Shown one piece after another: positions 24,105 through 44,641 of a stretch of 64,000 nucleotides of DNA. How positions within the stretch are numbered: position 1 is the stretch's first letter; each line of letters opens with the position of its first letter. The stretch is from NCBI GenBank assembly GCA_902517795.1, contig CABYDR010000001.1, forward strand, positions 2,512 through 66,511, read 5' to 3'. The notes under the pieces were generated by a model. The model was not told where the DNA came from. It saw nothing but the letters and a program-made list of their open reading frames with translations, and made no database searches. The position numbers and the translations under genes are program-made. The DNA comes from an uncultured Woeseiaceae bacterium. Its GTDB lineage: Bacteria; Pseudomonadota; Gammaproteobacteria; Steroidobacterales; Woeseiaceae.

Positions 24105-24146
24105 ATTATCCTCCTTGTAAGGTTAAATATACTGCCTATATTTTAT

Positions 24147-27893: not shown

Positions 27894-27980
27894 TGGTGCC
27901 CAGGGCCGGACTCGAACCGGCACGTCCTTTCGGACAACGGATTTTAAGTCCGTAGCGTCTACCAATTCCGCCACCCGGGC
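27894..27980 (-). tRNA. leuZ: tRNA-Leu (anticodon UAA)
   Basis: The reverse complement GCCCGGGTGGCGGAATTGGTAGACGCTACGGACTTAAAATCCGT...GGTTCGAGTCCGGCCCTGGGCACCA has a 7-bp acceptor stem, a long variable arm, a CTTAAAA anticodon loop and an encoded CCA. Confidence 0.9.
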
Positions 27981-27994
27981 CTAGGAAAGTTGAT

Positions 27995-28068
27995 TGGAGG
28001 CTAGGGTCGGAATCGAACCGGCGTCCGCGGCTTTGCAGGCCGCTGCATAACCACTCTGCCACCTAGCC
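27995..28068 (-). tRNA. cysT: tRNA-Cys (anticodon GCA)
   Basis: The reverse complement is GGCTAGGTGGCAGAGTGGTTATGCAGCGGCCTGCAAAGCCGCGGACGCCGGTTCGATTCCGACCCTAGCCTCCA. It folds as a cloverleaf with a CTGCAAA anticodon loop. Confidence 0.9.
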
Positions 28069-28140
28069 TGAACAACCAATAACTTCATATAGACTATGTA
28101 AAGATTATGACATTACATATATATCGAAGTATACATCGCT

Positions 28141-29430
28141 ATGCTTTATAATCAATCTCAAAAAATGATAACAATGTTAAATTTTATGAAAAAAATTAAA
28201 CCTATTGCATTATTAATGTATATATTTTCCTCAGTTTCAATCGCTGAAGACTCTCTTGATATTCAATTCTCAGATATATCGATAAAGACACCTGCTGGAA
28301 GCATGTCACCTCACCTGTCTACAAGTAAATCTAATATCACGATTTTGAATTGGCTAGAGCCAACTGATGATGGGCATAGAATACAGTTTTCTAGATTTGT
28401 TTCTGGCTGGACAGAACCATCGACAGTAACAAATGGAAATGATTGGTTTATTAACTGGGCTGATTTCCCTTCAGTCATTAATTTTAATCAAAATCAATAT
28501 GCAGCTCACTGGCTAAAAAAGAGCGGTGAATCAACATACGCTTATGATACTTATATTTCTATATCGAAAAATAATGGAAAATCCTGGTCAAAACCAATAA
28601 AAGCTCATGAAGATAAAACTCAAACAGAGCATGGCTTTCTCTCTTTTTATGAGTATAAAAATGAACTTGGATTTATATATCTAGACGGCAGAAAAATGGC
28701 AAATAAAGCTACACACGATAAAAACCATTCATCAATGTCGCTAAGATCAGGTTCTATCGATAGAAATTTGAAATTAAATAATACACACAATATTGATGGT
28801 TTAGTCTGTGAATGCTGTCAGACAGATATCACGATGACAGACAGGGGTCCAATCGGAGTATATCGCGACCGATCGACAGAAGAATATAGAGATATATATA
28901 TAACTAAATTAGAAAATGAGAGCTGGACTGAAGGTAAGCCATTACATCTAGATAACTGGAAAATTAACGGGTGCCCTGTAAATGGACCTGTAATAACGGG
29001 AAATAACAATGAGATTACAGTTGCCTGGTATACAAGATCTGGTGGAAAATCTAATATAAAGGTTGCCAAATCATTTGATTATGGTGAAACATTTAACGAG
29101 CCACTGCTCATCGGAACAAATGAGACAGTTGGTCATATAAGCATGACTAGCGATAACAAGAGAAATACTTGGTTGTTATGGCAAAAAACAGCAAAAAAAG
29201 GATTGGTCGAGCTCGTTTTAACAAGAATTGAACCCGACACAAATCAAATTATGCACAAAATTATTGAAGAAGCTGGAAAAAGCCCGAGATTCAGCTTTCC
29301 ACAGATTATTAGAAATGGTGAAACGATAATTCTAGCTTATACCACTGTGATTAATGATTCTCGTGAAACAAGAGGTAATAACAAGAAAACCTCAATTAAA
29401 TCAATATCTTTTAATACTAATCTATACTAG
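28141..29430 (+). CDS. secreted BNR/Asp-box repeat protein (sialidase-like beta-propeller superfamily)
   Basis: Asp-box-like motifs SKNNGKSW and SFDYGETF. The real start is probably the ATG at 28186 (MKKIKPIALLMYIFSSVSIAED signal peptide). Confidence 0.6.
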   Translation: MLYNQSQKMITMLNFMKKIKPIALLMYIFSSVSIAEDSLDIQFSDISIKTPAGSMSPHLSTSKSNITILNWLEPTDDGHRIQFSRFVSGWTEPSTVTNGNDWFINWADFPSVINFNQNQYAAHWLKKSGESTYAYDTYISISKNNGKSWSKPIKAHEDKTQTEHGFLSFYEYKNELGFIYLDGRKMANKATHDKNHSSMSLRSGSIDRNLKLNNTHNIDGLVCECCQTDITMTDRGPIGVYRDRSTEEYRDIYITKLENESWTEGKPLHLDNWKINGCPVNGPVITGNNNEITVAWYTRSGGKSNIKVAKSFDYGETFNEPLLIGTNETVGHISMTSDNKRNTWLLWQKTAKKGLVELVLTRIEPDTNQIMHKIIEEAGKSPRFSFPQIIRNGETIILAYTTVINDSRETRGNNKKTSIKSISFNTNLY

Positions 29431-29434
29431 ATTA

Positions 29435-29749
29435 TTATTTAATTTTTAATTTTGGTGCGTTAGTCATTATGCTTTTTATGCCTCTGTTCATTGAAGCTTT
29501 GTCCGCGTAACTTTGACTTGTCGCAATAACCTTATTATTTGCCGCTCTAACATTAAATGACCACTTTCCTGCTCTATTTTGCTTGGTATCAAATGAATCT
29601 TTACTTGCAGAGTTCATTGCTAGTGATTTAATGCCTTTCATGCAACCCGATCTTGAGGCATACCCTTGACTGGCACAGATTATCTGACCATTTCTTGCTC
29701 TGAGTCTGAATCTGGACTTTCCAGATCTGTCTTTATAAATTTCAAACAT
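29435..29749 (-). CDS. yegP: YegP-family protein (two DUF1508 repeats)
   Basis: Two tandem repeats of the pattern F.L.A.NG..I..SQ.Y.S......GI.S (FRLRARNGQIICASQGYASRSGCMKGIKS and FNVRAANNKVIATSQSYADKASMNRGIKS). Confidence 0.75.
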   Translation of the reverse strand: MFEIYKDRSGKSRFRLRARNGQIICASQGYASRSGCMKGIKSLAMNSASKDSFDTKQNRAGKWSFNVRAANNKVIATSQSYADKASMNRGIKSIMTNAPKLKIK

Positions 29750-29925
29750 TTTTTACTCCTATGTGCATAAATATAAAATGATATACTAACAAAAATAATT
29801 ACAAATAAAATTTAAAAAAAAATATTTTTAGGATTGGATATCTTTGCAATTAGTTGTATAGTATTTATCTTAAATCAACAACTAAACATTCAAATTATCC
29901 AAGACTCATGGGGAATAGAGAAAAA

Positions 29926-30336
29926 ATGAAAGCGTCGTCCTTTTTAAAGTTGGCCACTATATTTGGATCAACATTGCTAATTTTATCAGGATGCGCAGCT
30001 CCTGTTTATGTTTACCCAGAAACACCATCTTATGCTGTGCATTTTGAAAAAAATCCACGATCATTAAACTGCAGGCAATTGAATGAAGTTCGAATACAAG
30101 TATCATCATATATTGATGTAATTGCTGAAGAACAGATCGAAGGTGCTTCAAGAAGTACACCGAACTTCACTGCCGGTGTATCAATTTCTAATCCAACAAC
30201 TGGTAGAGATTTTCTTGGTTATCGTTCTGAAGGTGTAATGCCTGAAGTAAATGAATTTAGAAGATTAAAAGTCCTTCTAGAGGAAATAGAAGATTTACAA
30301 GTGCTGAAGTGCACAAGAACTAGTTTAGATAATTAA
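29926..30336 (+). CDS. hypothetical lipoprotein
   Basis: The ORF track starts at 29854. The internal ATG at 29926 gives MKASSFLKLATIFGSTLLILSGC with a lipobox. Confidence 0.5.
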   Translation: MKASSFLKLATIFGSTLLILSGCAAPVYVYPETPSYAVHFEKNPRSLNCRQLNEVRIQVSSYIDVIAEEQIEGASRSTPNFTAGVSISNPTTGRDFLGYRSEGVMPEVNEFRRLKVLLEEIEDLQVLKCTRTSLDN

Positions 30337-30390
30337 AATCAATTTAATAAAATTATTTAATTAATACAAATAAGTAACTGATAAATAGAG

Positions 30391-31248
30391 TTATTTACAA
30401 TCATCATTTCTTATACCCCAGGGAAGCTTTGTTTTACAAAGTATGGCTTTATCAATATTGATATTGAGTATTTTTGCAAATCTTAGATTTGCATACCGAA
30501 GATCAGCATTAAAGAAATTTGTGTTTATAAGTTTAGCACCAGTAAAATCAGTACCCGATAAATCCGCACTTGAAAAATTGGTATTAGATAAGTCTGCATT
30601 CATAAAATTAGATTGTCTTAAATTTGATTTGATGAACTGAGCATCAACTAATTTGGTGTCTACAAATACTGATCCATGAGCATCTGAATGACTAAGATCT
30701 CCTTCTTCAATATTTGCTTCCGAAAAATTAGACATAGATAAGACCGATGAACGCATCACAATATTTTTCATTCCTGCTTTAACGAGTGATGATCTGCTAA
30801 TATTTATATTATTTGCCCAGGCATTATTTAACTCAGCTTCATCAAGAATTGTGTTTTTAAGACTTGTATTTCTTATGCTTGAATTGGATAAATTCGAATA
30901 ACTTAGATCCGCATCCATCAAATCAGAATCGTCCAGCTTTGCTGATTGAAATGAAGCATATCTTAAATTAGTGTTTTTAAAATTTGCGGCTGTTATTGTT
31001 GAATTATTCAGTGACGCATTAATCAAAGTTGAATCAGAAAAATTAGTGTTGGCTAAATTCGCATTTTCTAATTCAGCATTATTCAGATTTATATCGCTTA
31101 AATTAGTATTCGAAAGATTGCATCCGTTACAGATATTTGATTCAAGAAAATTATCAAGCTCTATGCTTCTATCTTGAGCAAAAGCTAACTTGATTGGAAA
31201 TATCAAAAAAATGTAAAGCTGGATTTTTTTATTTAGCATTAAAATCAA
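30391..31248 (-). CDS. secreted pentapeptide-repeat protein
   Basis: Signal peptide followed by more than 35 consecutive A(D/N)LXX-type pentapeptides (NLSNTNLSDINLNNAELENANLANTNFSDS...). Confidence 0.85.
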   Translation of the reverse strand: MILMLNKKIQLYIFLIFPIKLAFAQDRSIELDNFLESNICNGCNLSNTNLSDINLNNAELENANLANTNFSDSTLINASLNNSTITAANFKNTNLRYASFQSAKLDDSDLMDADLSYSNLSNSSIRNTSLKNTILDEAELNNAWANNINISRSSLVKAGMKNIVMRSSVLSMSNFSEANIEEGDLSHSDAHGSVFVDTKLVDAQFIKSNLRQSNFMNADLSNTNFSSADLSGTDFTGAKLINTNFFNADLRYANLRFAKILNINIDKAILCKTKLPWGIRNDDCK

Positions 31249-31336
31249 ATATGATGAGTATTAATACAATAATAATAACAAGGGCAATTATGTCAACTAT
31301 GCGTTGCTCTTGCTCTAGTTCGAAACAACTTTAAAT

Positions 31337-32140
31337 CTAATGATTTTTTTTCAATGAAGTTTTCATATAGTCTACAAGAATCATATGCGGCACAGTTAGC
31401 GCTGCCAGGCCAATAAAAGTTATCTTTAGCAAATCATCTGAAATCATTTTGTTATCGCTAACATAATAAACAGTAGAAAAAATTAGCATAAATGTCACCA
31501 TGCTATATACCAGAGTTTCTTTTATTGCTTGATGCTTCTCTTTTTTACTTAATATTCTTAGAACTTTATTCATATGCCTAGGGCCATGTATCAAACAAAA
31601 GTAGATTGAGAAAGAGACTAGAGGTGGCAACACATAAATCAAAATTAATAAAATAATTAATTGAACATACCTTTTTACATAGGATTTTCTTCTAATAAAA
31701 TTAACTGTGTATAAAAAGAACACTAAAAACCAAGCGTAAAATAGATAAGTGATTATTGAGATTAGAAAGGTTGCTGTGTCAGCACCTAGCAAAAAAAATA
31801 TATCTGTTGCTTCTTCAGTATGCGACCATGGGATCATAACTGGCACCAAGCCAGCGTGTGAAAAAAAGGATATCCTGTTTATTTTTTCATCATCATCGTA
31901 TTCACTATGCGCGAAGTGAAGACCGGAAATCAACAAAAAAATTATAAGTGAAATCAGGGGCTGATATAACCAAAATACAATAACAAATAGAGAAATGACG
32001 ATGTAGGAAAAATGAAAGACAAAAAAATAATTTGCTGTATTAGGCCATCCCTTCATTCGCGCAATCGTGTTATCTAATGCGCCGTGCGGTATACCGAGAA
32101 GAATAATGCATAACAGTGCTACCCAGTTGTATACCTCCAT
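31337..32140 (-). CDS. blh: Brp/Blh-family beta-carotene 15,15'-dioxygenase (retinal synthesis)
   Basis: Polytopic membrane protein with the N-terminal GIPHGALD motif and conserved His residues. Lies directly after crtY in the proteorhodopsin cluster. Confidence 0.8.
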   Translation of the reverse strand: MEVYNWVALLCIILLGIPHGALDNTIARMKGWPNTANYFFVFHFSYIVISLFVIVFWLYQPLISLIIFLLISGLHFAHSEYDDDEKINRISFFSHAGLVPVMIPWSHTEEATDIFFLLGADTATFLISIITYLFYAWFLVFFLYTVNFIRRKSYVKRYVQLIILLILIYVLPPLVSFSIYFCLIHGPRHMNKVLRILSKKEKHQAIKETLVYSMVTFMLIFSTVYYVSDNKMISDDLLKITFIGLAALTVPHMILVDYMKTSLKKNH

Positions 32141-32145
32141 ATAAT

Positions 32146-33255
32146 TTATCCTCTTTTGATGCTTTTAAGAATTTGCTCAATAAATGGCTTTTTTGGCATT
32201 TGAGCTATCACTTTTGACCAAATATTGAAGCTTGTTGTGTTTGTCATAAACCTTGCAAATTCGTCTGCAGATAATGATTTTGACGTATTAAGGAACAAAT
32301 CAATGGCAATCTGAGGGTTATTTATTAATACTTTGTTGAATATCTCATCCATGAAAGTAACAAATTTATTCATTGTTACTGGAACATCATAGCACTCATT
32401 TCTTATATTATTTGCCAATTCGCCAACTTGAGATTGAATATTATGAAAAGCATATCCTGAGGACATCCTGACAGCACCTCCCCTTGCTCCAATGCAATGG
32501 ATACCCTTATTTTTATATTCTATTTTACCTTGAGATATAACACCCTTTTCAGATGAAAGTTTTTTTAGATAATTTAGGTTTTTATTTTTCATCCATAATT
32601 TTATCTGATCCTCATACCATTCTACCTGGTTGAGCTCTTTTGAAATTACAGTTGACTCAACGAATAACTTTCTTTCTGAAAAAGGGAGTGCATATATAAA
32701 GTGCAACCCATTATATTGATCAACATCAAAATCCATTAAAATCACTGAATCAATGTGATGAGCTTCAGTTAATTCAAACTCTATACCGTAAAAATGTTGT
32801 CTTAATAAACCAGCATTTAGTTTTGGTGGTCTACTATCATAAACATGGCATGCAGAGACAATATTATTTTTACAGATTATTTCTTTTCGATTATTTTTTT
32901 TTGAGATCTCAACTACTGCGTCTCTTATAATAAGAATATTAGAATTATTTAACTCATTTTCAATTTGTGATAAATACATGGATGCATTTATACATACGTA
33001 TTTATAACTTGAGCTGGAGTGAATTATTTTTTGTGTTTTATTAGAAACTGTCCAATCTTCCCAACTACCCTTTATTGAATTTTTAAAAATAGAAAGATTG
33101 TCTTTATGCATCCAAGTGCACCAATTTGCAACTTTATTCTCTGGAAGCTCTGGCTCAATAACAACTATCTTCTTTTTTGTTTGATCTCGAAATAAATTTC
33201 TCGCCAATGATAGTCCAGCATTACCAGCACCTATAATTGCAATATCAAAGTTCAT
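32146..33255 (-). CDS. crtY: lycopene beta-cyclase
   Basis: Rossmann start MNFDIAIIGAGNAGLSLA. The ORF track extends to 33324, but that would overlap crtB by 80 nt, so the ATG at 33253-33255 is preferred. Confidence 0.8.
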   Translation of the reverse strand: MNFDIAIIGAGNAGLSLARNLFRDQTKKKIVVIEPELPENKVANWCTWMHKDNLSIFKNSIKGSWEDWTVSNKTQKIIHSSSSYKYVCINASMYLSQIENELNNSNILIIRDAVVEISKKNNRKEIICKNNIVSACHVYDSRPPKLNAGLLRQHFYGIEFELTEAHHIDSVILMDFDVDQYNGLHFIYALPFSERKLFVESTVISKELNQVEWYEDQIKLWMKNKNLNYLKKLSSEKGVISQGKIEYKNKGIHCIGARGGAVRMSSGYAFHNIQSQVGELANNIRNECYDVPVTMNKFVTFMDEIFNKVLINNPQIAIDLFLNTSKSLSADEFARFMTNTTSFNIWSKVIAQMPKKPFIEQILKSIKRG

Positions 33256-34162
33256 TGGCACCTGATAAACCCTGAAAATATTTATGGAGCTTTTTTTCAT
33301 GAAGGGGAACTTTTTTTGGAACAATGCAATTCAGTGAGATAATGCTTAAAAGCATTTTCTTTTTATTACTAACAATTGTTCTTCCTTTCCACCATTGAGT
33401 GCCATTTTGGACCAGTTTAACTCCAATTTGCCGATATAATTTTAGTGCGATAGCTATAGCAATTCTCGATCTCATGGGAATGTAATAAATTCCTTTTGAA
33501 GCACTTTCATAATATTTTTCTGCAAGAGAAAAAAGTTTTGCAGTCGCATTTGAAATAGCTTCTTTGTCTGATAAATTTTTCTGAGCTATCCTCTCAGGTT
33601 CATTATCTAACCAAGTTGATGGAATATATCTTCGTCCAATTTGAGCATCTTCAAGGACATCTCTAGCGATATTAGTCAATTGCATTGCAACACCCAGGTC
33701 TACAGCAAAATATACTGACTGCCTTTCAGAACAATTTAGGATGCTTTGAACCATAACACCAACAGTTCCTGCAACAGCATGGCAATACCTTAGTAGTTCT
33801 TTTTCATCAGCAATTCTTACTGATCCTTGATCACTCAGCATTCCCTCCATTAATTCTTCCGCCGCATGGACTGGTATAGAGCATTCTGATACAAGATCAA
33901 GGAATTCTTTTACAACTTCTGGCTGATTCTTCTGATCTTTATTTACTAAGTGATCTTTAATATTGTTCAGCAATAATTCTCTGTTTGGATTATTGCTGTC
34001 TGCGAGATTATCAACGTATCTACAAAACTTATAAAGTCTTGCCACTTTTTGAGAAAGTATTTTACCTAAAAACTGACTAGCCCAATAAAAAGAGCTCCCA
34101 TATTTTTTTAATACTTGTTTAGGTTCATTTTGAATCATTTTTTTCACCTGATCCGACTTCAA
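33245..34162 (-). CDS. crtB: phytoene synthase
   Basis: Squalene/phytoene synthase motifs YCHAVAGTVG and QLTNIARDVLEDAQIGRRYIP. Confidence 0.85.
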   Translation of the reverse strand: MKSDQVKKMIQNEPKQVLKKYGSSFYWASQFLGKILSQKVARLYKFCRYVDNLADSNNPNRELLLNNIKDHLVNKDQKNQPEVVKEFLDLVSECSIPVHAAEELMEGMLSDQGSVRIADEKELLRYCHAVAGTVGVMVQSILNCSERQSVYFAVDLGVAMQLTNIARDVLEDAQIGRRYIPSTWLDNEPERIAQKNLSDKEAISNATAKLFSLAEKYYESASKGIYYIPMRSRIAIAIALKLYRQIGVKLVQNGTQWWKGRTIVSNKKKMLLSIISLNCIVPKKVPLHEKKLHKYFQGLSGANEL

Positions 34163-35642: not shown

Positions 35643-35683
35643 GCTGTTTACCCAAAGCTTGATATTGAGGTTTGATGGATTGT

Positions 35684-35709
35684 GAAGGTCGGGAATAAGC
35701 CCGACCTTT
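35684..35709 (-). terminator. stem-loop between proteorhodopsin and crtI (possible partial terminator or RNA-stability element)
   Basis: A 9-10 bp perfect stem (aaggtcggg / cccgacctt) with a 6-nt loop, starting 26 nt after the PR stop codon. No U-tract follows on the transcript, so termination efficiency is uncertain. Confidence 0.4.
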
Positions 35710-35734
35710 CACGAATCCGATTAACTCAGATCAA

Positions 35735-36415: not shown

Positions 36416-36732
36416 AAGAAATCCCCTTATTTTCAAATTGTTAGCACTCCAGTTTTTAATTTGAAATACTAACTTTTAAAAACATGACTTCATTTTGAAT
36501 TAATACTTTAGAATATCAAAATAAAGTCACCCAAAAGCCTGTGCAAGGCTCATTTGTGCCATAAGTTAAAATTGAGACTTTAACTTGTATATCATGAATA
36601 GCACAATTTTCTAGATGAGAATGATTCTCATACCTCACCTAACTAAAATTTAACAATACTTAACAATAGAATTCAAGTCATATTTAACTTAAATATTGAC
36701 ATATTCTGACATGCAAAAATGGGCTAATTGAA

Positions 36733-36808
36733 TGGAGCGGGAAACCGGGTTCGAACCGGCGACCTCAACCTTGGCAAGGTTGCGCTCTACCAACTGAGCT
36801 ATTCCCGC
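36733..36808 (-). tRNA. glyW: tRNA-Gly (anticodon GCC)
   Basis: The reverse complement is GCGGGAATAGCTCAGTTGGTAGAGCGCAACCTTGCCAAGGTTGAGGTCGCCGGTTCGAACCCGGTTTCCCGCTCCA, with a TTGCCAA anticodon loop. Confidence 0.9.
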
Positions 36809-37132
36809 ATAAGTAAGAAATATATTCTAACTGGATCTTGAGATTAGATAAAGAATTGATTGCCGTCACACCACCGTCACTTATCAGGCTTACAGGTATT
36901 ACAGATCTTTTGGAGTTATTTGGAGGTTGTAAAATTTTTTTAAAGGTTAATTTTGATTTGGTTACATCAATTAAACAAGAACAAGATTAATGTCATGAAA
37001 GTTAATTTCTTCATACCTAAACCCTAACAAGAACTCCCTGAATAAACAAATCAGGATGCTTTTTGATAAATAAACCTCCTATTTATTCACTATTTATTTA
37101 CAGAAATATTCCTATGTTGTTAAATACAGGCT

Positions 37133-38401: not shown

Positions 38402-38408
38402 CTTTATT

Positions 38409-39149
38409 TTACTTGATGGTCACTAAGACATACTCGATTGTCTCTTTCCCTTCATTCCCTCTTTCAAATGTGTCATTTGGAGATTCTGACTCTAACCATT
38501 CAACATCTCCAGGAGAGATCTCTCTTTCGCGGAATAAATATTCTCCATTTCTCTTTGATGAAATTGAGCCCCCTTTTATTACAATTGAAATTCGCCGTCC
38601 ATTTTGTAAGTGAGCCCCCTCCCACTCGCGTGGATTTAATATAACTTTTTGTGCAAAGAATCTGTGATTATCAAAAAGTAACTCTAGATTTACATATGGA
38701 TAGGTTTGCAGTTCAGTATCACCTCTCTCTTTTTCTGATGTATCTTGTTTCAGTGTCACGTATATCAATTCTATTGGGTTATCCCCACTGTTACCTGAGT
38801 CATGGCGATCCTCTATGGGGATAGCACCCACCCATCCGACCGAACCATCAGGAGAAAATTCTTTTTCGTACTCAAGTTCACCGTGCATTCTGCCAGACCA
38901 ATACCCACCTTTTATGTGAACATAAATCTGGTTTCCAGGGTGACTGTGGACACCTTCCCACTCTCCAGGGCCGACTACCAGCCTTTGAAGAACAACATAT
39001 TCATTATTAAAAATTACCTCACCGTCAGGATCATCAAGATTGGGATAATTAAGAAGATATTTAGAGAGATTTTCAGAATTTGAATTAGGTGCAAAAAGAA
39101 AATTAACTAGAAGAATAAATATAAAAGCTAATTTATTCTTTTTGCTCAT
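38409..39149 (-). CDS. secreted bicupin-like protein
   Basis: Two similar halves (PGEWEGVHSHPGNQIYVHIKGG and PREWEGAHLQNGRRISIVIKGG). The preferred start is the ATG at 39147-39149, with AAGGAG upstream and the signal peptide MSKKNKLAFIFILLVNFLFA. Confidence 0.55.
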   Translation of the reverse strand: MSKKNKLAFIFILLVNFLFAPNSNSENLSKYLLNYPNLDDPDGEVIFNNEYVVLQRLVVGPGEWEGVHSHPGNQIYVHIKGGYWSGRMHGELEYEKEFSPDGSVGWVGAIPIEDRHDSGNSGDNPIELIYVTLKQDTSEKERGDTELQTYPYVNLELLFDNHRFFAQKVILNPREWEGAHLQNGRRISIVIKGGSISSKRNGEYLFREREISPGDVEWLESESPNDTFERGNEGKETIEYVLVTIK

Positions 39150-39150
39150 T

Positions 39151-41034
39151 TCAAGATAGCTCCTTAACAGCACGCCATGCCTCTTCAATTGCCCTATTCA
39201 TTAATGAGCTTCCAGATGCATCACTATTTGCAATTGCTATTTTTCCAAATGGTCTTATGCCGATTTCACTCACTTTTCCATATGAATAACCATGCGCCCA
39301 TCTATTAACAGTAATACTTGCAACATCGCGATCGAAATTAAAGTAGTTTTTCGGTAACATTCCAGTTAAATGCTCTCTTATCTCCGCCTCATAATCTGAA
39401 AACTTCTTTCCAAGCATCCTGTATCTTGCCTCTTTGAATTGCTGGATAGCCGGGGCACCATGTGTGTCACCCTGGAGACAGCATCTCATGTGAAGGATAC
39501 AAGGATCATTAGGTGAATTAGTATACTCATATCCACCCATACTGGTTGGAAAATCCATATTAACTGCCTGATGCATGTTTCCTGGAGACATCGCCATGCC
39601 AATTCCTGCCTCCTTAACTGCCCTCCAATTTCTTAAACCAATAGTTGAGTACTGGAGAGGAATCTTTGTCAGTTTCATTAACTCTTGATACTGATCTTCA
39701 GGTAAATTATTAACTATATGTGGTATCATCATGTTATAGCAGGCTAAAATAACATTCTTTGACTTTACTCTGTAAGACGTTTCATTCTTTATATAATCTG
39801 TATAAACATAATCAGAATTACTTGCATCAGTCTCATGCTCAATATTTATGGCCGTGCTATTAAGCCTTAATCTTACATTGCTATTTTTTTTATCTAATTG
39901 GTGATAGTTAAACTTAGATAAGATTATTTCTTCAACATTGTCACCTTTTCCTACATTTGGAATAAGCTTTTTTACAAGCATTCTAGCTATAGTTGCATTG
40001 CCATCAGGATAGTGCTCAATAAATGGCTCCTCCACTGCGTATGTCCCGTCCTTTCGGTCAATATAATTCTGATAAGCCCCATCGTCGAGGACTTCCTTCC
40101 AAGTTGCCGCGTTCATGCCCAATGCTCCACCCTCAAGCGCACCATTTATAGTCATTACATCTGGTATTCCACCATAATCAACGATAGATTGTCTTGCCAT
40201 TCTATGAATCAGTGGATCTACAACCCCCAATGTATCTCTCATGTAATCAAAATAGGATACTTCTCTTACATATCTTCTCCATTGACTTTTTTCTATTCCA
40301 AGCGTCGAAGGTTTGCTCGTCAATAACTTTAATAGCTGTCTTTTTCCTTCAATATTCAAGGGAACTTGCTCGACAGCTTCATTGATGTCAATTTTGGGTC
40401 GCAGAAGACCTTCAATAAAACCCGGGTAGTCGCAAAATGGGTGTCTCACAATTTTATCTTCACCAAAATAACGCTCATTGAAATAAGTAACTGCTTCTAA
40501 CCCATGTTTTTTGAAGAAGTCTCTGTCATAAGCAGACTTAAAGGTTTCCATGTCAACACCGAGCTCATCCAAAAGTTTTAGTACAACATTACTGAATCCA
40601 CTGGGGTATTCAAATGACTCAGAGCCCCCCTCACCCAAAATCAATTTACCATCAACAATATGTTCATTCCTTCTGGCATGACCTCCAAAGTCGTCGTGAT
40701 TTTCAATTATGAGGATTTTTTTATTACTACCGTATTGTTGAGAGAAGAAATAGGCTGATGCAAGTCCGCTTATTCCTCCACCGACAACAACCAAATCATA
40801 CTCTTCGTCTAAGAGATTTCTCTTGCCCCAATCATTATTGCTCGTCCATGCTTTTTTATGGGCACTCTCGTTAGACCCAGGGTGACTGCCCCTAAGCCCA
40901 TTAAGTGCTGGCGGGTAACTCGAATTAGATATATCTTTAGGGTGTTGACCCATGCTGCTTCCAACTGGCATAGCCGAAGAGCCAAAGAGCATTAAACAGC
41001 CATTAATAAAATCTCTTCTATCAATTTTACTCAT
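39151..41034 (-). CDS. Tat-exported FAD-dependent amine-oxidase-like oxidoreductase (spermidine dehydrogenase-like)
   Basis: Twin-arginine-type N-terminus MSKIDRRDFINGCLMLFGSSAM and dinucleotide motif YDLVVVGGGISGLASAYFF. Confidence 0.65.
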   Translation of the reverse strand: MSKIDRRDFINGCLMLFGSSAMPVGSSMGQHPKDISNSSYPPALNGLRGSHPGSNESAHKKAWTSNNDWGKRNLLDEEYDLVVVGGGISGLASAYFFSQQYGSNKKILIIENHDDFGGHARRNEHIVDGKLILGEGGSESFEYPSGFSNVVLKLLDELGVDMETFKSAYDRDFFKKHGLEAVTYFNERYFGEDKIVRHPFCDYPGFIEGLLRPKIDINEAVEQVPLNIEGKRQLLKLLTSKPSTLGIEKSQWRRYVREVSYFDYMRDTLGVVDPLIHRMARQSIVDYGGIPDVMTINGALEGGALGMNAATWKEVLDDGAYQNYIDRKDGTYAVEEPFIEHYPDGNATIARMLVKKLIPNVGKGDNVEEIILSKFNYHQLDKKNSNVRLRLNSTAINIEHETDASNSDYVYTDYIKNETSYRVKSKNVILACYNMMIPHIVNNLPEDQYQELMKLTKIPLQYSTIGLRNWRAVKEAGIGMAMSPGNMHQAVNMDFPTSMGGYEYTNSPNDPCILHMRCCLQGDTHGAPAIQQFKEARYRMLGKKFSDYEAEIREHLTGMLPKNYFNFDRDVASITVNRWAHGYSYGKVSEIGIRPFGKIAIANSDASGSSLMNRAIEEAWRAVKELS

Positions 41035-42234
41035 TTACTTTACCGTTGTTTTCTCATAGATATCGGCATCGGATAGTTTCTTCCAATCGACATCGACGCC
41101 AAGCCCTGGTTTCTTGAATTCTCTTGTAAACCCATTTTCAATCAAATTATCATTCTTGAGACCAAAATGATACATGTCAATAGGAGCTGGCGTTTCAAAA
41201 TATGTAGATTTGCATGAAGCTAGCATAATATGAAGATTTACTGCCTGTGCCAGCGTATTGCCCCAACATTGCATTTCTAATTTTGCTGAATATTTATTTA
41301 TTATATTAATTAACTCGAGACTCTTAGTAAGACCGCCTACAATAGTTGCGTCAAATCTCGCGGCGCTCCAACAGTCATGCTTTAATCCATTTTCAATGTG
41401 ATCTTCAGAATAGAGGGTATAGCCATCTGGAATAATTGGAATAGAAATAGATCTCTTTAACCTGCTGTAATCGTCCAATAAATTATCCTTCATTGGTGCC
41501 TCTAGCCATTTAAATGTATTTTTATTCATCGCTTTACCAATTCTAAATGCTTGATCAAAATTATATTCACCTTCAAGGTCTAATATAAATTGGAATGCCT
41601 TATTACGAAATTGTTCTTCGATAAGGTTGACTAACTCAAGATCTTTCTCTATCAATCCCCAAGTATGAATTTTAAATACCTCAAAACCCATTAGAGCATG
41701 TAACTCAATGTTTGCGATCAAATCTTTGTTTTCACTATAAAAAGGCAGGCTTGCATACGCCTTCATGCTATGTTTCTGTCCACCAAGAAATTTATAAAGT
41801 GGCATGGAGGCTTTTTTGGCAGCCAAGTCCCAACATGCAATATCAATGCACGTGAGCACACTATCAGAGACATTTGAATATTTATTTTTAAGAAGTCTCC
41901 TTAAAACAATAGGATCATTTTCTCTGTTCGAAATTAAATACGAGCAAACGGATACAAGCTCGTAATAATGACTTAAATCAAACTCTTTAATCGAGTTAGT
42001 TGTTATGCCAGATAAACCTTCTAGACCATCTGATGTGATTACTCTCAAGATAAGATTTAAATGTTTCCATACCTCCCACTTAGAAGAGTATTTGGCATCT
42101 GTTTCATTTAAACCATAGGCATAAATCTCTATGGTTTTTATCTCTGGATTATTAGAAGAAGAGAAATATGAATCGTAATTGATATTGATTTTATTAGGAA
42201 GCTTATAAATTAAATCTCTAGTTTTATAGGACAT
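41035..42234 (-). CDS. enolase-superfamily enzyme (mandelate racemase/muconate lactonizing enzyme family)
   Basis: AIDIACWDLAAK-type motif (CIDIACWDLAAKKASMPLYKFLGG) and the barrel-domain pattern. Its stop abuts the start of the flavoprotein gene. Confidence 0.75.
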   Translation of the reverse strand: MSYKTRDLIYKLPNKININYDSYFSSSNNPEIKTIEIYAYGLNETDAKYSSKWEVWKHLNLILRVITSDGLEGLSGITTNSIKEFDLSHYYELVSVCSYLISNRENDPIVLRRLLKNKYSNVSDSVLTCIDIACWDLAAKKASMPLYKFLGGQKHSMKAYASLPFYSENKDLIANIELHALMGFEVFKIHTWGLIEKDLELVNLIEEQFRNKAFQFILDLEGEYNFDQAFRIGKAMNKNTFKWLEAPMKDNLLDDYSRLKRSISIPIIPDGYTLYSEDHIENGLKHDCWSAARFDATIVGGLTKSLELINIINKYSAKLEMQCWGNTLAQAVNLHIMLASCKSTYFETPAPIDMYHFGLKNDNLIENGFTREFKKPGLGVDVDWKKLSDADIYEKTTVK

Positions 42235-42795
42235 TTATGATTCTTTTTTCATAGACGGCCACGCTAATTGAAGATACCTGAACATAGACCAAAGAGTCAT
42301 TCCAACAGCAAGCAAAAGAAGTGTAAAACCTGTCGCGTATGTATCAATATTCATTATTGGTTCCTTGTATACCATGAAACCAATGCCGAACATTTGAAGG
42401 GCAGTTTTTAGTTTTCCCGACCAAGAAACGGCTACCTTTGATCTGTCACCAATTGTTGCCATCCATTCCCTTAAGGCCGATATCGTTATCTCTCGACCTA
42501 TAATAATTACAGCAATTATATCTACATACCACCCTGGATCTGATTGAACAAGAAGCACTAATACGATTGCAACCATCAATTTATCGGCAACGGGGTCAAG
42601 AAATGCACCAAATCTTGATATCTGCCCATATTTTCTGGCTATATAACCATCAAAAAAGTCAGTAATTGCAGCAATCCCAAAGATTATGCCTGCAATTGGT
42701 CTAGCTATAGCGTGATCCACATAGAAACATACCACTACTATCGGGATTGCAAGAATTCGCATTATCGTAAGCAGATTTGCAAGTGAATATTTCAT
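42235..42795 (-). CDS. pgsA: CDP-diacylglycerol--glycerol-3-phosphate 3-phosphatidyltransferase
   Basis: CDP-alcohol phosphatidyltransferase motif DFFDGYIARKYGQISRFGAFLDPVADK. 186 aa, directly after uvrC as in E. coli. Confidence 0.9.
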   Translation of the reverse strand: MKYSLANLLTIMRILAIPIVVVCFYVDHAIARPIAGIIFGIAAITDFFDGYIARKYGQISRFGAFLDPVADKLMVAIVLVLLVQSDPGWYVDIIAVIIIGREITISALREWMATIGDRSKVAVSWSGKLKTALQMFGIGFMVYKEPIMNIDTYATGFTLLLLAVGMTLWSMFRYLQLAWPSMKKES

Positions 42796-42817
42796 AACAA
42801 TATAGTAATTCTCAGCC

Positions 42818-44641
42818 CTACTTATGTAAATTATTACTTATGCGAACTGCTAAATCTTTACTGATGCCTCTGACCTTCCTGAGATCATCGGCACTGGCTA
42901 TTAAAACACCTTGGATACCACCAAACTGTTTAAGCAGTTCACGTTTTTTTACAGGTCCTAAACCCTCGATACCGTCTAATTTTGAGGACTTTCTGTTTAT
43001 TTTTCTTCTGATGCGATGACCAGTAACAGCAAATCTATGGGCTTCGTCTCTGATCTGCTGTATATAGTGAAATGCAGGCGAGTGAGATAAAACTTTTAGT
43101 ATATTTTTACTGTCATTAACATATATAGTTTCGTCTCCTGATTTTCTTTCTTTTCCTTTAGCTATTGCAGCAACAGATAAATCACTTATTTCTAGTGATT
43201 TTAAGATTTCATTTACCCTGCTTAACTGCCCTTTTCCCCCATCAATGAATAATATATCTGGCTTCTTTTCAGCTTTATTTTTAACTTTTTTGTATCTTCT
43301 TAGGATTGCTTCCGCCATCGCGGCATAATCATCACCTATTTGGGTTGTTTTAATATTATAGCGTCGATAGTCGGATTTTAATGGGCCATTTTTATCGAAT
43401 ACAACGCATGATGCCACAGTTGCTTCACCTGATATATGACTTACATCTATACATTCCATTCTTTCCGGCATCCTTCCATTCAAAATCAATTTTCCGAGAC
43501 TCTTAAGTTTAATCTCAGTTGATGAATCTATGGATAATTCATATTCCAAGCCTGATCGAGCATTTTTATTTGCTAGCTCTTGCCATTTTAATCTGTTGCC
43601 ACGGACATTATTGTTGAGTTTGATTTTTTTTCTGTATTTTGTTTTTAGAGAATTTTGAATCCATTCTTTATTATAAATCTCTTCTGATAATATAATTTCT
43701 GAAGGTGGTTCTATCTCAAAATAATGCTGGAGTATGAACCCTTCTTGAATAATCTCTTTGTCTTTGCAATTTTTAATTTTAGGAAAATGGTTCTTACTTC
43801 CCAAAATAGAGCCACCTCTAATAAATAAAACCGTAACACAATGTATATTTCCATTAGTTGCAATGCCGATGACATCCATATCGTATTTTTTATTTGAAAT
43901 GGCCAGCTGTTTTGCTTGTATTTCTTTTAATCGTTTAATTTGATCTCTGTAACGAATAGCTTCCTCATAATTCTGTTGGTTGGATTGCAAATCCATTTTT
44001 TTTATCAGTTGGTTGATTATTGAAGTATTTTTTCCTCTTAAGAAAGATATGGTCGACCTTACATCTTGCGAATACTCATCTTTTTTAATTAGGTTTACAC
44101 AAGGTGCTGAACATCTTTTTATTTGATACTGCAAACATGGTCTTGATCTATTTCTAAAATAACTGTCCTTGCATTGTCTAACCTTAAATATCTTTTGCAG
44201 CTCGGTGAGGGTTTCCCTAACGGCCATTACGTTTGGATAGGGCCCAAAATATTCTCCTTTTAGAACTTTATTTTTCCTTTGAAATTCAATTCTTGGAAAA
44301 TCCTGATGAGAAGATACATATATATATGGATAACTCTTATCATCTCTCAGCACAACATTGTATTTTGGTCTGTACCTTTTTATTAATGAGTATTCAAGGA
44401 TCAATGCTTCATTCTCGGTGTTGGTTACAGTTAGATCCAAACTTTTTACATTGCTCATTAGCAATCTTGTCTTACCGTGAGACTCATTTTTATTAAAGTA
44501 GCTGGGTATTCTTTTTTTCAAATTTTTTGCTTTACCAACATAAAGAACTTTTTCATCCGAATCTAACATCCTATAAGTACCAGGTTTTGATGGGATATTT
44601 TTAATGATAGTCGTGGGATGATCTTTTATTTCTATTAGCAT
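42818..44641 (-). CDS. uvrC: excinuclease ABC subunit C
   Basis: GIY-YIG N-terminus (PGTYRMLD..VLYVGKAKNLKKR), UVR domain and a C-terminal helix-hairpin-helix. 607 aa. Confidence 0.95.
   Translation of the reverse strand: MLIEIKDHPTTIIKNIPSKPGTYRMLDSDEKVLYVGKAKNLKKRIPSYFNKNESHGKTRLLMSNVKSLDLTVTNTENEALILEYSLIKRYRPKYNVVLRDDKSYPYIYVSSHQDFPRIEFQRKNKVLKGEYFGPYPNVMAVRETLTELQKIFKVRQCKDSYFRNRSRPCLQYQIKRCSAPCVNLIKKDEYSQDVRSTISFLRGKNTSIINQLIKKMDLQSNQQNYEEAIRYRDQIKRLKEIQAKQLAISNKKYDMDVIGIATNGNIHCVTVLFIRGGSILGSKNHFPKIKNCKDKEIIQEGFILQHYFEIEPPSEIILSEEIYNKEWIQNSLKTKYRKKIKLNNNVRGNRLKWQELANKNARSGLEYELSIDSSTEIKLKSLGKLILNGRMPERMECIDVSHISGEATVASCVVFDKNGPLKSDYRRYNIKTTQIGDDYAAMAEAILRRYKKVKNKAEKKPDILFIDGGKGQLSRVNEILKSLEISDLSVAAIAKGKERKSGDETIYVNDSKNILKVLSHSPAFHYIQQIRDEAHRFAVTGHRIRRKINRKSSKLDGIEGLGPVKKRELLKQFGGIQGVLIASADDLRKVRGISKDLAVRISNNLHK

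What the first reader, a model, noticed from the sequence alone, without database searches (positions are those of the whole stretch)
27894..44641. Conserved uvrC-pgsA-tRNAGly-tRNACys-tRNALeu locus is split open; the proteorhodopsin photosystem lies inside the tRNA operon
- Order here: on the minus strand the order is uvrC, pgsA, tRNA-Gly(GCC), tRNA-Cys(GCA), tRNA-Leu(UAA).
- Reference arrangement: in E. coli K-12 exactly these genes are contiguous (uvrC-pgsA-glyW-cysT-leuZ, same anticodons).
- Spacing here: tRNA-Cys and tRNA-Leu are still only 14 nt apart.
- First insertion: 5426 nt separate pgsA from tRNA-Gly. This carries the enolase-family enzyme, Tat flavoprotein, bicupin and malonyl-CoA decarboxylase.
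- Second insertion: 8664 nt separate tRNA-Gly from tRNA-Cys. This carries PR, crtI, crtB, crtY, blh, the pentapeptide protein, a lipoprotein, YegP and the Asp-box protein.
- Interpretation: together with the cassette array after tRNA-Leu, this makes the locus a triple insertion hotspot. It also gives a concrete genomic context for lateral acquisition of the retinal photosystem.
- Caveat: I did not find duplicated tRNA-Gly or tRNA-Cys fragments flanking these two insertions, so their mechanism is unclear.
Basis: partly seen in the sequence, partly recalled or inferred. Interest (0 to 1): 0.65.

Follow-up and report, generated by a model that had tools for sequence, protein, structure and literature searches.

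The report
Proteorhodopsin gene block beside a tRNA gene
In an uncultured low-GC marine gammaproteobacterium, an old three-tRNA gene cluster has been pulled apart in steps, and the light-harvesting proteorhodopsin gene block sits right next to one of those tRNAs, where wild relatives swap or lose it by ordinary homologous recombination; this is a clear example of a known kind of genome variation, not a new mechanism.

Summary
The gene order, tRNA anticodons, spacings of 14, 5426 and 8664 nt, gene identities and the E. coli reference order were all verified.

- **The tRNA-Gly/tRNA-Cys split is old.** A BNR (Asp-box) gene already separates the two tRNAs in most Woeseiaceae, the nearest named relatives.
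- **Both "insertions" are shared and native-looking.** They occur with the same layout in a second species about 70% identical in DNA (MAG MED-G80). Their base composition matches the core, and they carry no integrase and no tRNA-fragment repeats.
- **PR-crtI-crtB-crtY-blh is a discrete 5.4-kb unit** flush with the 3' end of tRNA-Gly.
- **A PR-less genotype exists.** One wild genotype, 90-97% identical on both outer flanks, lacks exactly this unit within a divergent tract. That pattern indicates a homologous-recombination replacement. At least five independent assemblies carry it.
- **The PR gene alone has been swapped.** Two MED-G80 strains that are 97-100% identical around it differ in PR type (Med12-type Gln105 versus GPR-type Leu105). 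The swap is bounded by tRNA-Gly and crtI.
- **Only the tRNA-Leu site shows the integrase-type signature.** It has three partial tRNA-Leu copies bounding strain-variable cassettes.

Verdict: a real variable locus and a new member of a known kind.

The parts
42818..44641 (-). uvrC, the conserved anchor gene of the locus
   Evidence: Pfam domains GIY-YIG, UVR and UvrC RNase H. Orthologs occupy the same position in MED-G80 and all Woeseiaceae loci.
42235..42795 (-). pgsA (CDP-alcohol phosphatidyltransferase), a conserved anchor gene. In Woeseiaceae and E. coli it is followed directly by tRNA-Gly.
36809..42234 (.). Clade-specific block between pgsA and tRNA-Gly. It holds an enolase-superfamily enzyme (41035-42234, -), a Tat-signal FAD oxidoreductase (39151-41034, -), a 259-aa cupin-like ORF (38409-39188, -) and malonyl-CoA decarboxylase (37133-38401, +).
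   Evidence: Pfam/NCBIfam and the twin-arginine motif. MED-G80 (L001, L084) has the same four genes in the same order; Woeseiaceae lack them. Composition is native (z = -0.7).
36809..37050 (.). 242-nt non-coding segment at the 5' side of tRNA-Gly. It is absent from close relative L081 and from contigs in runs X1 and X2.
   Evidence: blastn gap; joint 36808->37051; no Rfam hit.
36733..36808 (-). tRNA-Gly(GCC). It marks the fixed right-hand edge of the PR module and serves as a recombination anchor.
   Evidence: It is 100% identical in L083 and 97.6% over 82 nt in L084. The breakpoint of the PR swap lies at its 3' end.
31303..36732 (-). PR photosystem module, about 5.43 kb: PR (35735-36412), crtI (34125-35642), crtB (33245-34162), crtY (32146-33324) and blh (31337-32140). 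No crtE or idi is present in the cluster.
   Evidence: Pfam/NCBIfam. PR best matches PDB 4jq6 at E = 5.6e-93. The module is precisely absent in L083, L173, L176, L177 and L178. The same five-gene unit lies in another context in L161. Composition is native (z = 0.1). PR mRNA is abundant in metatranscriptomes.
31269..31296 (-). Best sigma-70-like promoter match in the interval (TTGACA-16-TATTAT, 11 of 12), upstream of the pentapeptide gene. The left edge of the PR module lies just upstream of it.
   Evidence: The TGTCAA motif and its surroundings are retained in PR-less L083. This is a consensus match only.
29435..31248 (.). Clade-specific block kept when PR is absent: pentapeptide-repeat protein (30391-31248, -), lipoprotein (29854-30336, +) and DUF1508/YegP (29435-29749, -).
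   Evidence: Present in L081-L087, L083/L173 and L166. Absent from the Woeseiaceae interval.
28141..29430 (+). BNR/Asp-box protein, divergently placed next to tRNA-Cys. It is the ancient occupant of the Gly-Cys interval.
   Evidence: Positional orthologs lie next to tRNA-Cys in 12 or more Woeseiaceae loci. In an NJ tree they are sister to the window clade.
27894..28068 (-). tRNA-Cys(GCA) at 27995-28068 and tRNA-Leu(UAA) at 27894-27980, 14 nt apart. This is the remaining intact part of the ancestral tRNA cluster.
16556..27893 (-). Cassette array downstream of tRNA-Leu. Partial tRNA-Leu copies (tRNA positions about 25-31 to 87) lie at 21924-21986, 18226-18283 and 16556-16612. They bound three cassettes: 21987-27893 (six ORFs with no family hit), 18284-21923 (MFS transporter, acyl-CoA ligase, enoyl-CoA hydratase) and 16613-18225 (136-aa ORF plus MBL-fold protein).
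   Evidence: L081 lacks 18284-27887, and L086 and L166 carry other cassettes with the same tRNA-Leu fragments. Cassette 21987-27893 is compositionally atypical (z = 7.2).

Best explanation
This is the ancestral gammaproteobacterial uvrC-pgsA-tRNAGly-tRNACys-tRNALeu locus, expanded in at least four separate steps of different ages.

1. Before this pelagic low-GC clade split from Woeseiaceae, a BNR gene came to lie between tRNA-Gly and tRNA-Cys. That ended co-transcription of the three tRNAs.
2. In the ancestor of the window species and the MED-G80 species, a four-gene metabolic block entered between pgsA and tRNA-Gly. YegP, lipoprotein, pentapeptide and the five-gene PR-crtI-crtB-crtY-blh module came to lie between tRNA-Gly and BNR. 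The PR module is flush with the 3' end of tRNA-Gly.
3. Since then the module has mostly been inherited vertically, but it behaves as a replaceable allele. Homologous recombination with crossovers in conserved flanks has replaced the PR gene alone (flanks: tRNA-Gly and the 5' end of crtI). It has also replaced the whole region with a PR-less version (flanks: the pentapeptide gene and the bicupin/Tat-flavoprotein boundary).
4. Downstream of tRNA-Leu, cassettes accumulate by serial site-specific integration. Each integration leaves a copy of the 3' two-thirds of tRNA-Leu.

Shown directly: the gene orders, the presence/absence states, the identity breakpoints, the repeats and the composition. Inferred: the order of events, recombination as the mechanism, and loss rather than gain in the PR-less genotype.
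For: Ancestral order.
- Outgroups L028 and L029 have Gly-Cys spacers of 71-72 nt, and E. coli has the contiguous order.

Old split.
- In Woeseiaceae, pgsA is 54-115 nt from tRNA-Gly.
- The Gly-Cys gap ranges from 0.15 to 8.5 kb, with a BNR ortholog next to tRNA-Cys.
- BNR from those loci is sister to the window clade's BNR.
- Other genes in that gap (DUF5916/CBM9, OmpW, GDSL lipase and others) include no integrase.

Shared layout.
- L001 and L084 (MED-G80 species, about 70% nt identity) have the same genes in the same order on both sides of tRNA-Gly.
- Divergence of crt and blh genes scales with that of flanking genes. The ratio of divergence to MED-G80 over divergence to L082 is 2.2-3.0 for module genes and 2.0-4.7 for flanking genes (numbers).
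- Composition of the PR module (z = 0.1) and of the pgsA-Gly block (z = -0.7) cannot be told from the core.
- There is no integrase and no tRNA-Gly or tRNA-Cys fragment.

PR-less allele.
- L083, L173, L176, L177 and L178 come from independent assemblies and are 99.9% identical to each other.
- Their order is BNR-YegP-lipoprotein-pentapeptide | tRNA-Gly | agmatinase | MCD | bicupin | Tat flavoprotein.
- Identity to the window is 90-97% outside and 56-81% inside a central tract.
- The Tat flavoprotein is 99% identical while MCD is 73% and bicupin 66%.
- In runs X1 and X2 a joint 31110->36731 is present and depth over the module is far below the flanks. In X24 and X25 depth is even and there is no such joint.

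PR-only swap.
- L001 and L084 are 97-100% identical on both sides.
- They are 43-75% identical only from the tRNA-Gly 3' end to the crtI start.
- L001 PR is 92% identical to the window PR (Gln105, no signal peptide).
- L084 PR is 61% identical to the window PR, carries Leu105 and a signal peptide, and best matches GPR structures at 71% identity.

tRNA-Leu array.
Against: - No complete genomes or core-gene phylogeny of the clade were available, so the relative ages rest on parsimony over a limited sample and on a rough NJ tree without bootstrap support.
- One Woeseiaceae locus (L008) has Gly-Cys only 151 nt apart with no BNR. The BNR position could therefore have been gained after the base of the family, or lost in L008.
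- A related low-GC lineage (L161) carries the same five-gene module at a different locus without a tRNA. The module has therefore moved or been acquired at least twice, and the original route of entry next to tRNA-Gly is unknown.
- The donor of the PR-less tract was not found.
- Metagenome contigs can be chimeric at tRNAs. I argue against this for the L083 type, because identity changes away from the tRNA and five assemblies agree. I cannot argue against it for L175.
Confidence: 0.7

Rival explanations
1. The PR photosystem and the four-gene metabolic block are two lateral insertions delivered into an intact tRNA operon by tRNA-targeted integrative elements. The locus would then be a record of the acquisition event.
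For: - The module is flush with the 3' end of tRNA-Gly and is a discrete present/absent unit.
- Rhodopsin operons next to tRNA genes have been reported as recent horizontal operon transfers (PMC7701988).
- The neighbouring tRNA-Leu clearly is an integration site.
Against: - No integrase, and no tRNA-Gly or tRNA-Cys partial repeats.
- Composition is native.
- The same layout occurs in a species about 70% identical in DNA.
- BNR already split Gly from Cys in Woeseiaceae.
- Breakpoints of the observed variants lie in flanking genes, not at an att site.
Confidence: 0.1
2. The PR-less arrangement (pentapeptide | tRNA-Gly) is the older state within the window's species complex. The PR module spread into lineages by recombination, so the polymorphism reflects gain rather than loss.
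For: - PR genes demonstrably move by recombination at this site.
- The module exists at another locus in L161.
- The PR-less tract is itself old and divergent, at 56-81% identity.
Against: - PR-positive states occur in all other sampled window-like lineages: L081, L082, L103, L179 and L182.
- They also occur in the more distant MED-G80 species at the same site.
- crt and blh divergence tracks that of the flanks.
- The PR-less type is a single near-clonal genotype, 99.9% identical across assemblies.
Confidence: 0.17
3. The interrupted arrangement, or the PR-less variant, is an assembly or binning artefact caused by joining contigs at conserved tRNA genes.
For: - Logan contigs break inside tRNA-Gly, which has very high depth.
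- The alignment of L175 to L083 starts exactly at the tRNA end.
Against: - The window layout is reproduced by L081, L082, L103, L179 and L180.
- The PR-less layout is reproduced by five assemblies from different samples.
- Its identity shifts occur about 350 nt and about 2.9 kb away from the tRNA.
- Depth on the two sides covaries across four runs.
Confidence: 0.03

Closest known systems
E. coli K-12 uvrY-uvrC-pgsA-glyW-cysT-leuZ locus
   Same: The order, orientation and anticodons of uvrC, pgsA, tRNA-Gly(GCC), tRNA-Cys(GCA) and tRNA-Leu(UAA) are the same. Cys and Leu are still adjacent, at 14 nt here against 12 nt in E. coli.
   Different: 5.4 kb and 8.7 kb of genes, some on the opposite strand, separate pgsA from Gly and Gly from Cys. 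The three tRNAs therefore cannot be one transcription unit. No uvrY lies upstream of uvrC in the window.
Proteorhodopsin photosystem gene clusters (PR with crtEIBY, blh and idi) of marine bacteria. Their lateral transfer is long established (own knowledge: Sabehi 2005, Frigaard 2006, McCarren and DeLong 2007, Martinez 2007).
   Same: PR followed by crtI, crtB, crtY and blh on one strand. The PR is canonical: H75, D97, T101, E108 and K231 by homology, and its best PDB match is the blue-absorbing PR entry 4jq6.
   Different: No crtE or idi in the cluster. The PR lacks an N-terminal signal peptide. The module abuts a tRNA-Gly inside a former tRNA cluster.
Xanthorhodopsin operons next to tRNA genes in Tardiphaga, with paired MAGs that have or lack the operon (PMC7701988)
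   Same: A rhodopsin operon lies beside a tRNA gene, and a homologous region in a close relative lacks it.
   Different: There the operon is nearly 100% identical between strains and is surrounded by IS elements and an integrase, indicating recent transfer. Here there are no mobility genes, the composition is native, the layout is shared at about 70% nt identity, and exchange is by homologous recombination.
Additive and replacement flexible genomic islands of marine bacteria (own knowledge: the Rodriguez-Valera/Lopez-Perez concept), and the tRNA-flanked islands of Prochlorococcus with repeated partial tRNA copies (Coleman 2006)
   Same: The tRNA-Leu array behaves as an additive island, with partial tRNA repeats and strain-specific cassettes. 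The tRNA-Gly/PR region behaves as a replacement island, with divergent alleles between highly similar flanks.
   Different: Both types sit within 9 kb of each other on the remains of one tRNA cluster. No integrase was found in the 28 kb downstream of tRNA-Leu.

Membership tests
Integrase-mediated tRNA-targeted genomic island (applied to the PR module at tRNA-Gly) | Lies directly 3' of a tRNA gene | tested here: met
   The module ends at 36732 and the tRNA-Gly 3' end is at 36733.
Integrase-mediated tRNA-targeted genomic island (applied to the PR module at tRNA-Gly) | Direct repeat of the tRNA 3' part at the distal end (attL/attR) | tested here: not met
   blastn-short and nhmmer find no tRNA-Gly or tRNA-Cys fragment in 64 kb.
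Integrase-mediated tRNA-targeted genomic island (applied to the PR module at tRNA-Gly) | Integrase or other mobility gene within the island | tested here: not met
   Pfam on all ORFs from 28 to 42 kb finds none.
Integrase-mediated tRNA-targeted genomic island (applied to the PR module at tRNA-Gly) | Atypical base composition | tested here: not met
   Tetranucleotide distance z = 0.1 against size-matched core chunks.
Integrase-mediated tRNA-targeted genomic island (applied to the PR module at tRNA-Gly) | Present or absent among close relatives | tested here: met
   The L083, L173, L176, L177 and L178 contigs lack it; L081, L082, L103, L179 and L182 have it.
Integrase-mediated tRNA-targeted island array (applied to 16556-27893 at tRNA-Leu) | Direct repeats of the tRNA 3' part bounding each unit | tested here: met
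   Three copies of tRNA-Leu positions about 25-31 to 87, at 86-89% identity. The same is seen in L086 and L166.
Integrase-mediated tRNA-targeted island array (applied to 16556-27893 at tRNA-Leu) | Integrase gene | tested here: not met
   None in window 1-28 kb. PHROGs finds nothing for the unknown ORFs. An integrase could act in trans from elsewhere in the genome; that was not testable here.
Integrase-mediated tRNA-targeted island array (applied to 16556-27893 at tRNA-Leu) | Strain-variable content and atypical composition | tested here: met
   L081 lacks 18284-27887, and L086 and L166 carry other cassettes. Cassette 21987-27893 has z = 7.2, while the two shorter cassettes are not significant.
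Replacement-type flexible island exchanged by homologous recombination | A sharp identity drop bounded by highly similar flanks, with different gene content inside | tested here: met
   L083 against the window: 90-97%, then 56-81%, then 90-97%. L001 against L084: 97-100%, then 43-75%, then 98-100%.
Replacement-type flexible island exchanged by homologous recombination | Formal recombination test or phylogenetic incongruence across breakpoints | not tested
   Only sliding-window identity was computed. No GARD- or ClonalFrame-type analysis was run.
Proteorhodopsin photosystem (light-driven proton pump plus retinal synthesis) | PR with a Schiff-base lysine and the D97/T101/E108 proton-pump residues | tested here: met
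   Read from the translation by homology to solved PRs...RYIDWLITVPLQIVEF... and ...NLADLVNKTAFG.... Gln at position 105 points to the blue-absorbing type.
Proteorhodopsin photosystem (light-driven proton pump plus retinal synthesis) | blh plus crtI, crtB and crtY adjacent to PR | tested here: met
   Pfam BCD, Lycopene_cycl, SQS_PSY and Amino_oxidase; NCBIfam blh_monoox above its cutoff.
Proteorhodopsin photosystem (light-driven proton pump plus retinal synthesis) | crtE (GGPP synthase) and idi in the cluster | tested here: not met
   No polyprenyl synthase or idi among the ORFs scanned with Pfam across 0.7-50.5 kb. They may lie elsewhere in the genome.
Proteorhodopsin photosystem (light-driven proton pump plus retinal synthesis) | Expression and light-driven proton pumping | tested here: inconclusive
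   PR-matching RNA contigs (at least 95% identical) are abundant in four metatranscriptomes, at depths up to about 550. Pumping was not testable.
Conserved gammaproteobacterial uvrC-pgsA-tRNAGly-Cys-Leu synteny | Gene order and anticodons | tested here: met
Conserved gammaproteobacterial uvrC-pgsA-tRNAGly-Cys-Leu synteny | Contiguity of the three tRNAs as one unit | tested here: not met
   8664 nt lie between Gly and Cys, with BNR and the lipoprotein on the opposite strand.

The most novel reading that the evidence does not exclude
The remains of one tRNA cluster may act as a three-site gene-exchange platform in a so far undescribed pelagic, low-GC sister lineage of Woeseiaceae.
- The perfectly conserved tRNA-Gly, together with crtI, would form a 'socket' in which proteorhodopsin types are swapped (Med12-type Gln105 for GPR-type Leu105) and the whole photosystem is dropped. 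Phototrophy would then be a population-level flexible trait.
- The tRNA-Leu array, made of one- to six-gene cassettes each ending in the same tRNA-Leu 3' copy and lacking any local integrase, could be an integron-like capture system served by a recombinase encoded elsewhere.
Probability: 0.2. Interest if true: 0.65.

Novelty: new member of a known kind. Interest (0 to 1): 0.42.

Why it matters
Lateral transfer of proteorhodopsin is usually inferred from conflicting trees. Here the breakpoints are visible directly.
- A 1.05-kb swap of the PR gene alone, between two PR types, in strains that are 97-100% identical around it.
- A whole-module replacement in a genotype that dominates two ocean samples, while PR-positive relatives dominate two others.

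This opens a testable question: does the PR-less genotype track depth, light or nutrients? It also shows that conserved tRNA and carotenoid genes can serve as recombination anchors without any mobile-element machinery.

Finally, it is a caution. Adjacency to a tRNA does not by itself indicate a recent insertion, since most of this 'split' is old.

Tried and rejected
- **Promoter and terminator scans of 27.6-37.3 kb.** Counts were not above shuffled expectation (37 against 42.8 for promoters; 6 against 4.0 for terminators). I used only the single 11-of-12 match, and only as a landmark.
- **Co-transcription of PR with tRNA-Gly.** RNA contigs reach at most 36626 and stop short of the tRNA. The contigs laid end just past the PR stop codon, at about 35676-35712, and crt coverage is near zero. 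PR therefore looks monocistronic, although contig evidence is weak.
- **Rfam, evalue mode, 15.5-45 kb.** Only the three tRNAs were found.
- **PHROGs on the seven unknown cassette ORFs.** Nothing. Pfam also found nothing significant for them.
- **Naming the taxon.** Cluster look-up gave no taxonomy. Literature searches for 'MED-G80', for 'proteorhodopsin' with 'tRNA-Gly', and a five-term search returned nothing. 'Proteorhodopsin' with 'Woeseiaceae' gave only incidental co-mentions.
- **Conserved genes downstream of tRNA-Leu.** None are shared between the window and Woeseiaceae. The true core downstream partner (window about 5-15 kb) was found only in the closer lineage L166.
- **L175 as a third state at tRNA-Gly.** I considered it but rejected it as evidence, because its alignment break coincides exactly with the tRNA end, so it may be a chimera.
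- **L032 as a PR-less relative.** It turned out to be a pgsA pseudogene remnant fused to another gene fragment.

Full report
**Observation.**
ARAGORN places tRNA-Leu(UAA) at 27894-27980, tRNA-Cys(GCA) at 27995-28068 and tRNA-Gly(GCC) at 36733-36808, all on the minus strand. Rfam confirms all three and finds no other RNA family between 15.5 and 45 kb.

Pfam and NCBIfam confirm uvrC, pgsA, an enolase-superfamily enzyme, a FAD oxidoreductase, malonyl-CoA decarboxylase, PR, crtI, crtB, crtY, blh, a pentapeptide-repeat protein, DUF1508/YegP and a BNR protein. The oxidoreductase begins MSKIDRRDFI, a twin-arginine motif. The 160-aa ORF has an LSGC lipobox.

The E. coli K-12 record shows uvrY-uvrC-pgsA-glyW-cysT-leuZ contiguous with the same anticodons.

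**Who is this, and what do relatives look like?**
A scan of one genome per species with pgsA gave one close hit, MAG MED-G80 (L001, 85% identity). The next hits were Woeseiaceae MAGs at 63-70%. The window has 35% G+C and the Woeseiaceae loci 55-61%. The organism therefore belongs to a poorly sampled pelagic, low-GC lineage whose nearest named relatives are Woeseiaceae. I found no literature on it.

- **Upstream synteny.** The order aldehyde dehydrogenase, DAHP synthase, pseudouridine synthase, uvrC, pgsA is conserved throughout.
- **Outgroups.** An Alcanivoracaceae MAG and a Lysobacterales MAG have pgsA followed by Gly, Cys and Leu with 71-72 nt between Gly and Cys. The contiguous state is therefore ancestral.
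- **Woeseiaceae.** tRNA-Gly follows pgsA within 54-115 nt in most loci. The Gly-Cys gap ranges from 151 nt to 8.5 kb.
- **BNR.** In at least twelve Woeseiaceae loci a BNR homolog lies directly beside tRNA-Cys, in the same divergent orientation as in the window. In a rough NJ tree these BNRs are sister to the window-clade BNR and separate from other BNR homologs.
- **Other genes in that gap.** They are ordinary chromosomal genes: DUF5916/CBM9, OmpW, GDSL lipase, octopine dehydrogenase, radical SAM and Mut7-C. There is no integrase.

The separation of tRNA-Gly from tRNA-Cys is thus older than the window's clade. It is not a consequence of the arrival of the PR genes.

**The two 'insertions' are shared and native-looking.**
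MED-G80 (L001) and a second contig of the same species (L084, 93.8% nt identity to L001) have the window's layout. It runs pgsA, enolase-like, Tat flavoprotein, bicupin, MCD, tRNA-Gly, PR, crtI, crtB, crtY, blh, pentapeptide, lipoprotein, YegP, BNR, tRNA-Cys. These contigs are only about 70% identical to the window in DNA.

Divergence of the module genes scales with that of the flanking genes. I took the ratio of divergence to MED-G80 over divergence to the close relative L082.

| Gene | Location | Ratio |
|---|---|---|
| blh | module | 2.2 |
| crtY | module | 2.2 |
| crtB | module | 3.0 |
| crtI | module | 2.9 |
| BNR | flank | 2.4 |
| YegP | flank | 2.0 |
| pentapeptide | flank | 4.2 |
| lipoprotein | flank | 4.7 |

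Tetranucleotide distance to the window's core, judged against size-matched core chunks, gives z = 0.1 for the PR module and z = -0.7 for the pgsA-Gly block. No integrase is encoded anywhere between 0.7 and 50.5 kb. Sensitive searches find no tRNA-Gly or tRNA-Cys fragment.

**The PR module is nevertheless a discrete, exchangeable unit.**
A metagenome scan with BNR recovered window-like contigs with the full layout (L081, L082, L103). It also recovered one, L083, in which the pentapeptide gene is followed after about 125 nt by tRNA-Gly. PR, crtI, crtB, crtY and blh are all missing.

- **Left edge.** It lies just upstream of the pentapeptide gene's promoter-like site (31269-31296), which L083 retains.
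- **Right edge.** It is the 3' end of tRNA-Gly.
- **Extra gene.** On the other side of the tRNA, L083 has an additional agmatinase gene.
- **Identity profile against the window.** It is 90-97% over the first 2.9 kb of L083. It falls to 56-81% across the 5' end of the pentapeptide gene, the tRNA flanks, MCD and bicupin. It returns to 90-97% from the bicupin/Tat-flavoprotein boundary onward.
- **Independent support.** Four further assemblies from other samples (L173, L176, L177, L178) are 99.9% identical to L083 and span the tRNA. In L173 the Tat flavoprotein is 99% identical to the window's, while MCD is 73% and bicupin 66%.

This is the signature of a double-crossover replacement by a divergent PR-less allele. 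It is not the signature of an assembly chimera at the tRNA or of an excision at an att site.

In two ocean metagenomes (X1, X2) contigs carry the joint 31110->36731. Depth over the module there is 0-7 and 0-12, against 6-10 and 18-22 on the flank. In two others (X24, X25) depth is even and the joint is absent. Other window-like lineages (L179, L182) are PR-positive. Parsimony therefore favours loss in the L083 type, but gain by recombination is not excluded.

**The PR gene alone has been swapped.**
L001 and L084 are 97-100% identical on both sides. They are only 43-75% identical over about 1.05 kb that starts at the 3' end of tRNA-Gly and ends at the start of crtI. Their crtI proteins differ by two residues.

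| Feature | L001 PR | L084 PR |
|---|---|---|
| Identity to the window's PR | 92% | 61% |
| Signal peptide | none | present |
| Residue at spectral-tuning position 105 | Gln | Leu |
| Best solved match | not searched; the window PR, 92% identical, best matches 4jq6 | green-absorbing PR structures, 71% overall and 74.5% for the mature part |

This is direct evidence of lateral replacement of PR at this locus, with a tRNA gene and a carotenoid gene as the recombination anchors.

**The module also exists elsewhere.**
PRs 86-88% identical to the window's lie on long contigs of another low-GC (36%) lineage (L161-L163). There the same PR-crtI-crtB-crtY-blh unit sits between amidohydrolase/MORN genes and a DUF4440-like gene, with no tRNA nearby. 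The five genes have therefore been placed as a unit at least twice among related lineages. A 77-78% PR (L164) stands alone without crt genes.

**tRNA-Leu is a different kind of site.**
Downstream of tRNA-Leu are three co-oriented copies of tRNA-Leu positions about 25-31 to 87, each with a few downstream bases. They lie at 21924-21986, 18226-18283 and 16556-16612.

- The copies bound cassettes of 5.9, 3.6 and 1.6 kb.
- L081 lacks the first two cassettes exactly.
- L086 has two different cassettes.
- A fourth lineage (L166) has a single beta-lactamase-like cassette followed by the same fragment. After it come genes syntenic with window 5-15 kb.
- The 5.9-kb cassette is compositionally atypical, with z = 7.2.

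This is the classic footprint of serial integration at the anticodon-loop sublocation of a tRNA gene (own knowledge: Williams 2002). However, no integrase lies within 28 kb.

**Expression.**
RNA contigs at least 95% identical to the window's PR are abundant in four metatranscriptomes, at depths up to about 550. They extend at most to 36626 upstream, and the contigs laid end just past the PR stop codon at about 35676-35712. crt and blh coverage is near zero. PR therefore appears to be transcribed on its own, not with tRNA-Gly. Contig evidence of this kind is weak.

**Comparison and verdict.**
The locus is a member of the conserved uvrC-pgsA-tRNA synteny group that has lost contiguity. The PR region fails three of five defining features of an integrase-mediated tRNA island: att repeats, an integrase and atypical composition. 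It meets those of a replacement-type flexible island. The tRNA-Leu array meets the island criteria except for a local integrase.

Rhodopsin operons beside tRNA genes, with strain pairs that have or lack them, have been described before (PMC7701988). So have PR gain and loss within conserved synteny (PMC5932025).

The finding is real and well resolved, but it is a new member of a known kind. Its implied scenario, recent insertions splitting an intact tRNA operon in this genome, does not hold.

Noticed in passing
window 16556-27893: Array of three gene cassettes, each ending in a 57-63-nt copy of the 3' part of tRNA-Leu. The content varies by strain (L081, L086, L166), and no integrase lies within 28 kb.
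   Followed up: partly
window 16389-16481 and 23388-23480: A 93-nt direct repeat at 88% identity. The first copy is the 5' end of a MORN-repeat protein gene (15824-16495, with 69-nt tandem repeats). The second lies in the unknown cassette next to a short ORF and may be a gene fragment.
   Followed up: no
window 36809-37050: A 242-nt non-coding segment directly 5' of tRNA-Gly. It is absent from close relative L081 and from contigs in runs X1 and X2, and it has no Rfam match.
   Followed up: partly
L032 9960-11800: In a low-GC Fram Strait 'Woeseiaceae' MAG, a degraded pgsA fragment with in-frame stops is fused to another gene's start. It is followed by pentapeptide and lipoprotein genes in the same relative orientation as in the window, with no tRNA, no PR and no metabolic block.
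   Followed up: partly
L175 1-1617: One contig, identical to the PR-less type to the right of tRNA-Gly, carries a 204-aa unknown ORF and an alpha/beta hydrolase to the left instead of the pentapeptide gene. The break coincides exactly with the tRNA end, so it may be a chimera.
   Followed up: partly
L166-L169 (left ends): Four long contigs (34-80 kb) of a fourth related lineage all end in or next to the lipoprotein/YegP genes, just short of where the PR module would be. This may reflect assembly breaks caused by population heterogeneity.
   Followed up: no
L083 3425-4405; L166 5555-6523: An agmatinase gene lies between tRNA-Gly and MCD in the PR-less genotype. Its 86% homolog in another lineage lies downstream of tRNA-Leu. 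The same gene thus occupies two different variable sites of the locus.
   Followed up: partly
window 35676-36626: Metatranscriptome contigs suggest a highly expressed monocistronic PR mRNA with a 5' leader of about 125-215 nt. crtI to blh are hardly represented.
   Followed up: partly
window 44641-44725 against L003-L019 (about 2 kb between the pseudouridine synthase gene and uvrC): Woeseiaceae have about 2 kb of extra sequence upstream of uvrC, where E. coli has uvrY. The window has none, so uvrC abuts the pseudouridine synthase gene. The content of the extra 2 kb was not annotated.
   Followed up: no
L171, L172: In lineages whose MCD is 58-59% identical, MCD lies in a different neighbourhood with no tRNA (TonB receptor, MAPEG, SAM hydroxide adenosyltransferase). 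The pgsA-Gly block is therefore not universal in the wider group.
   Followed up: no
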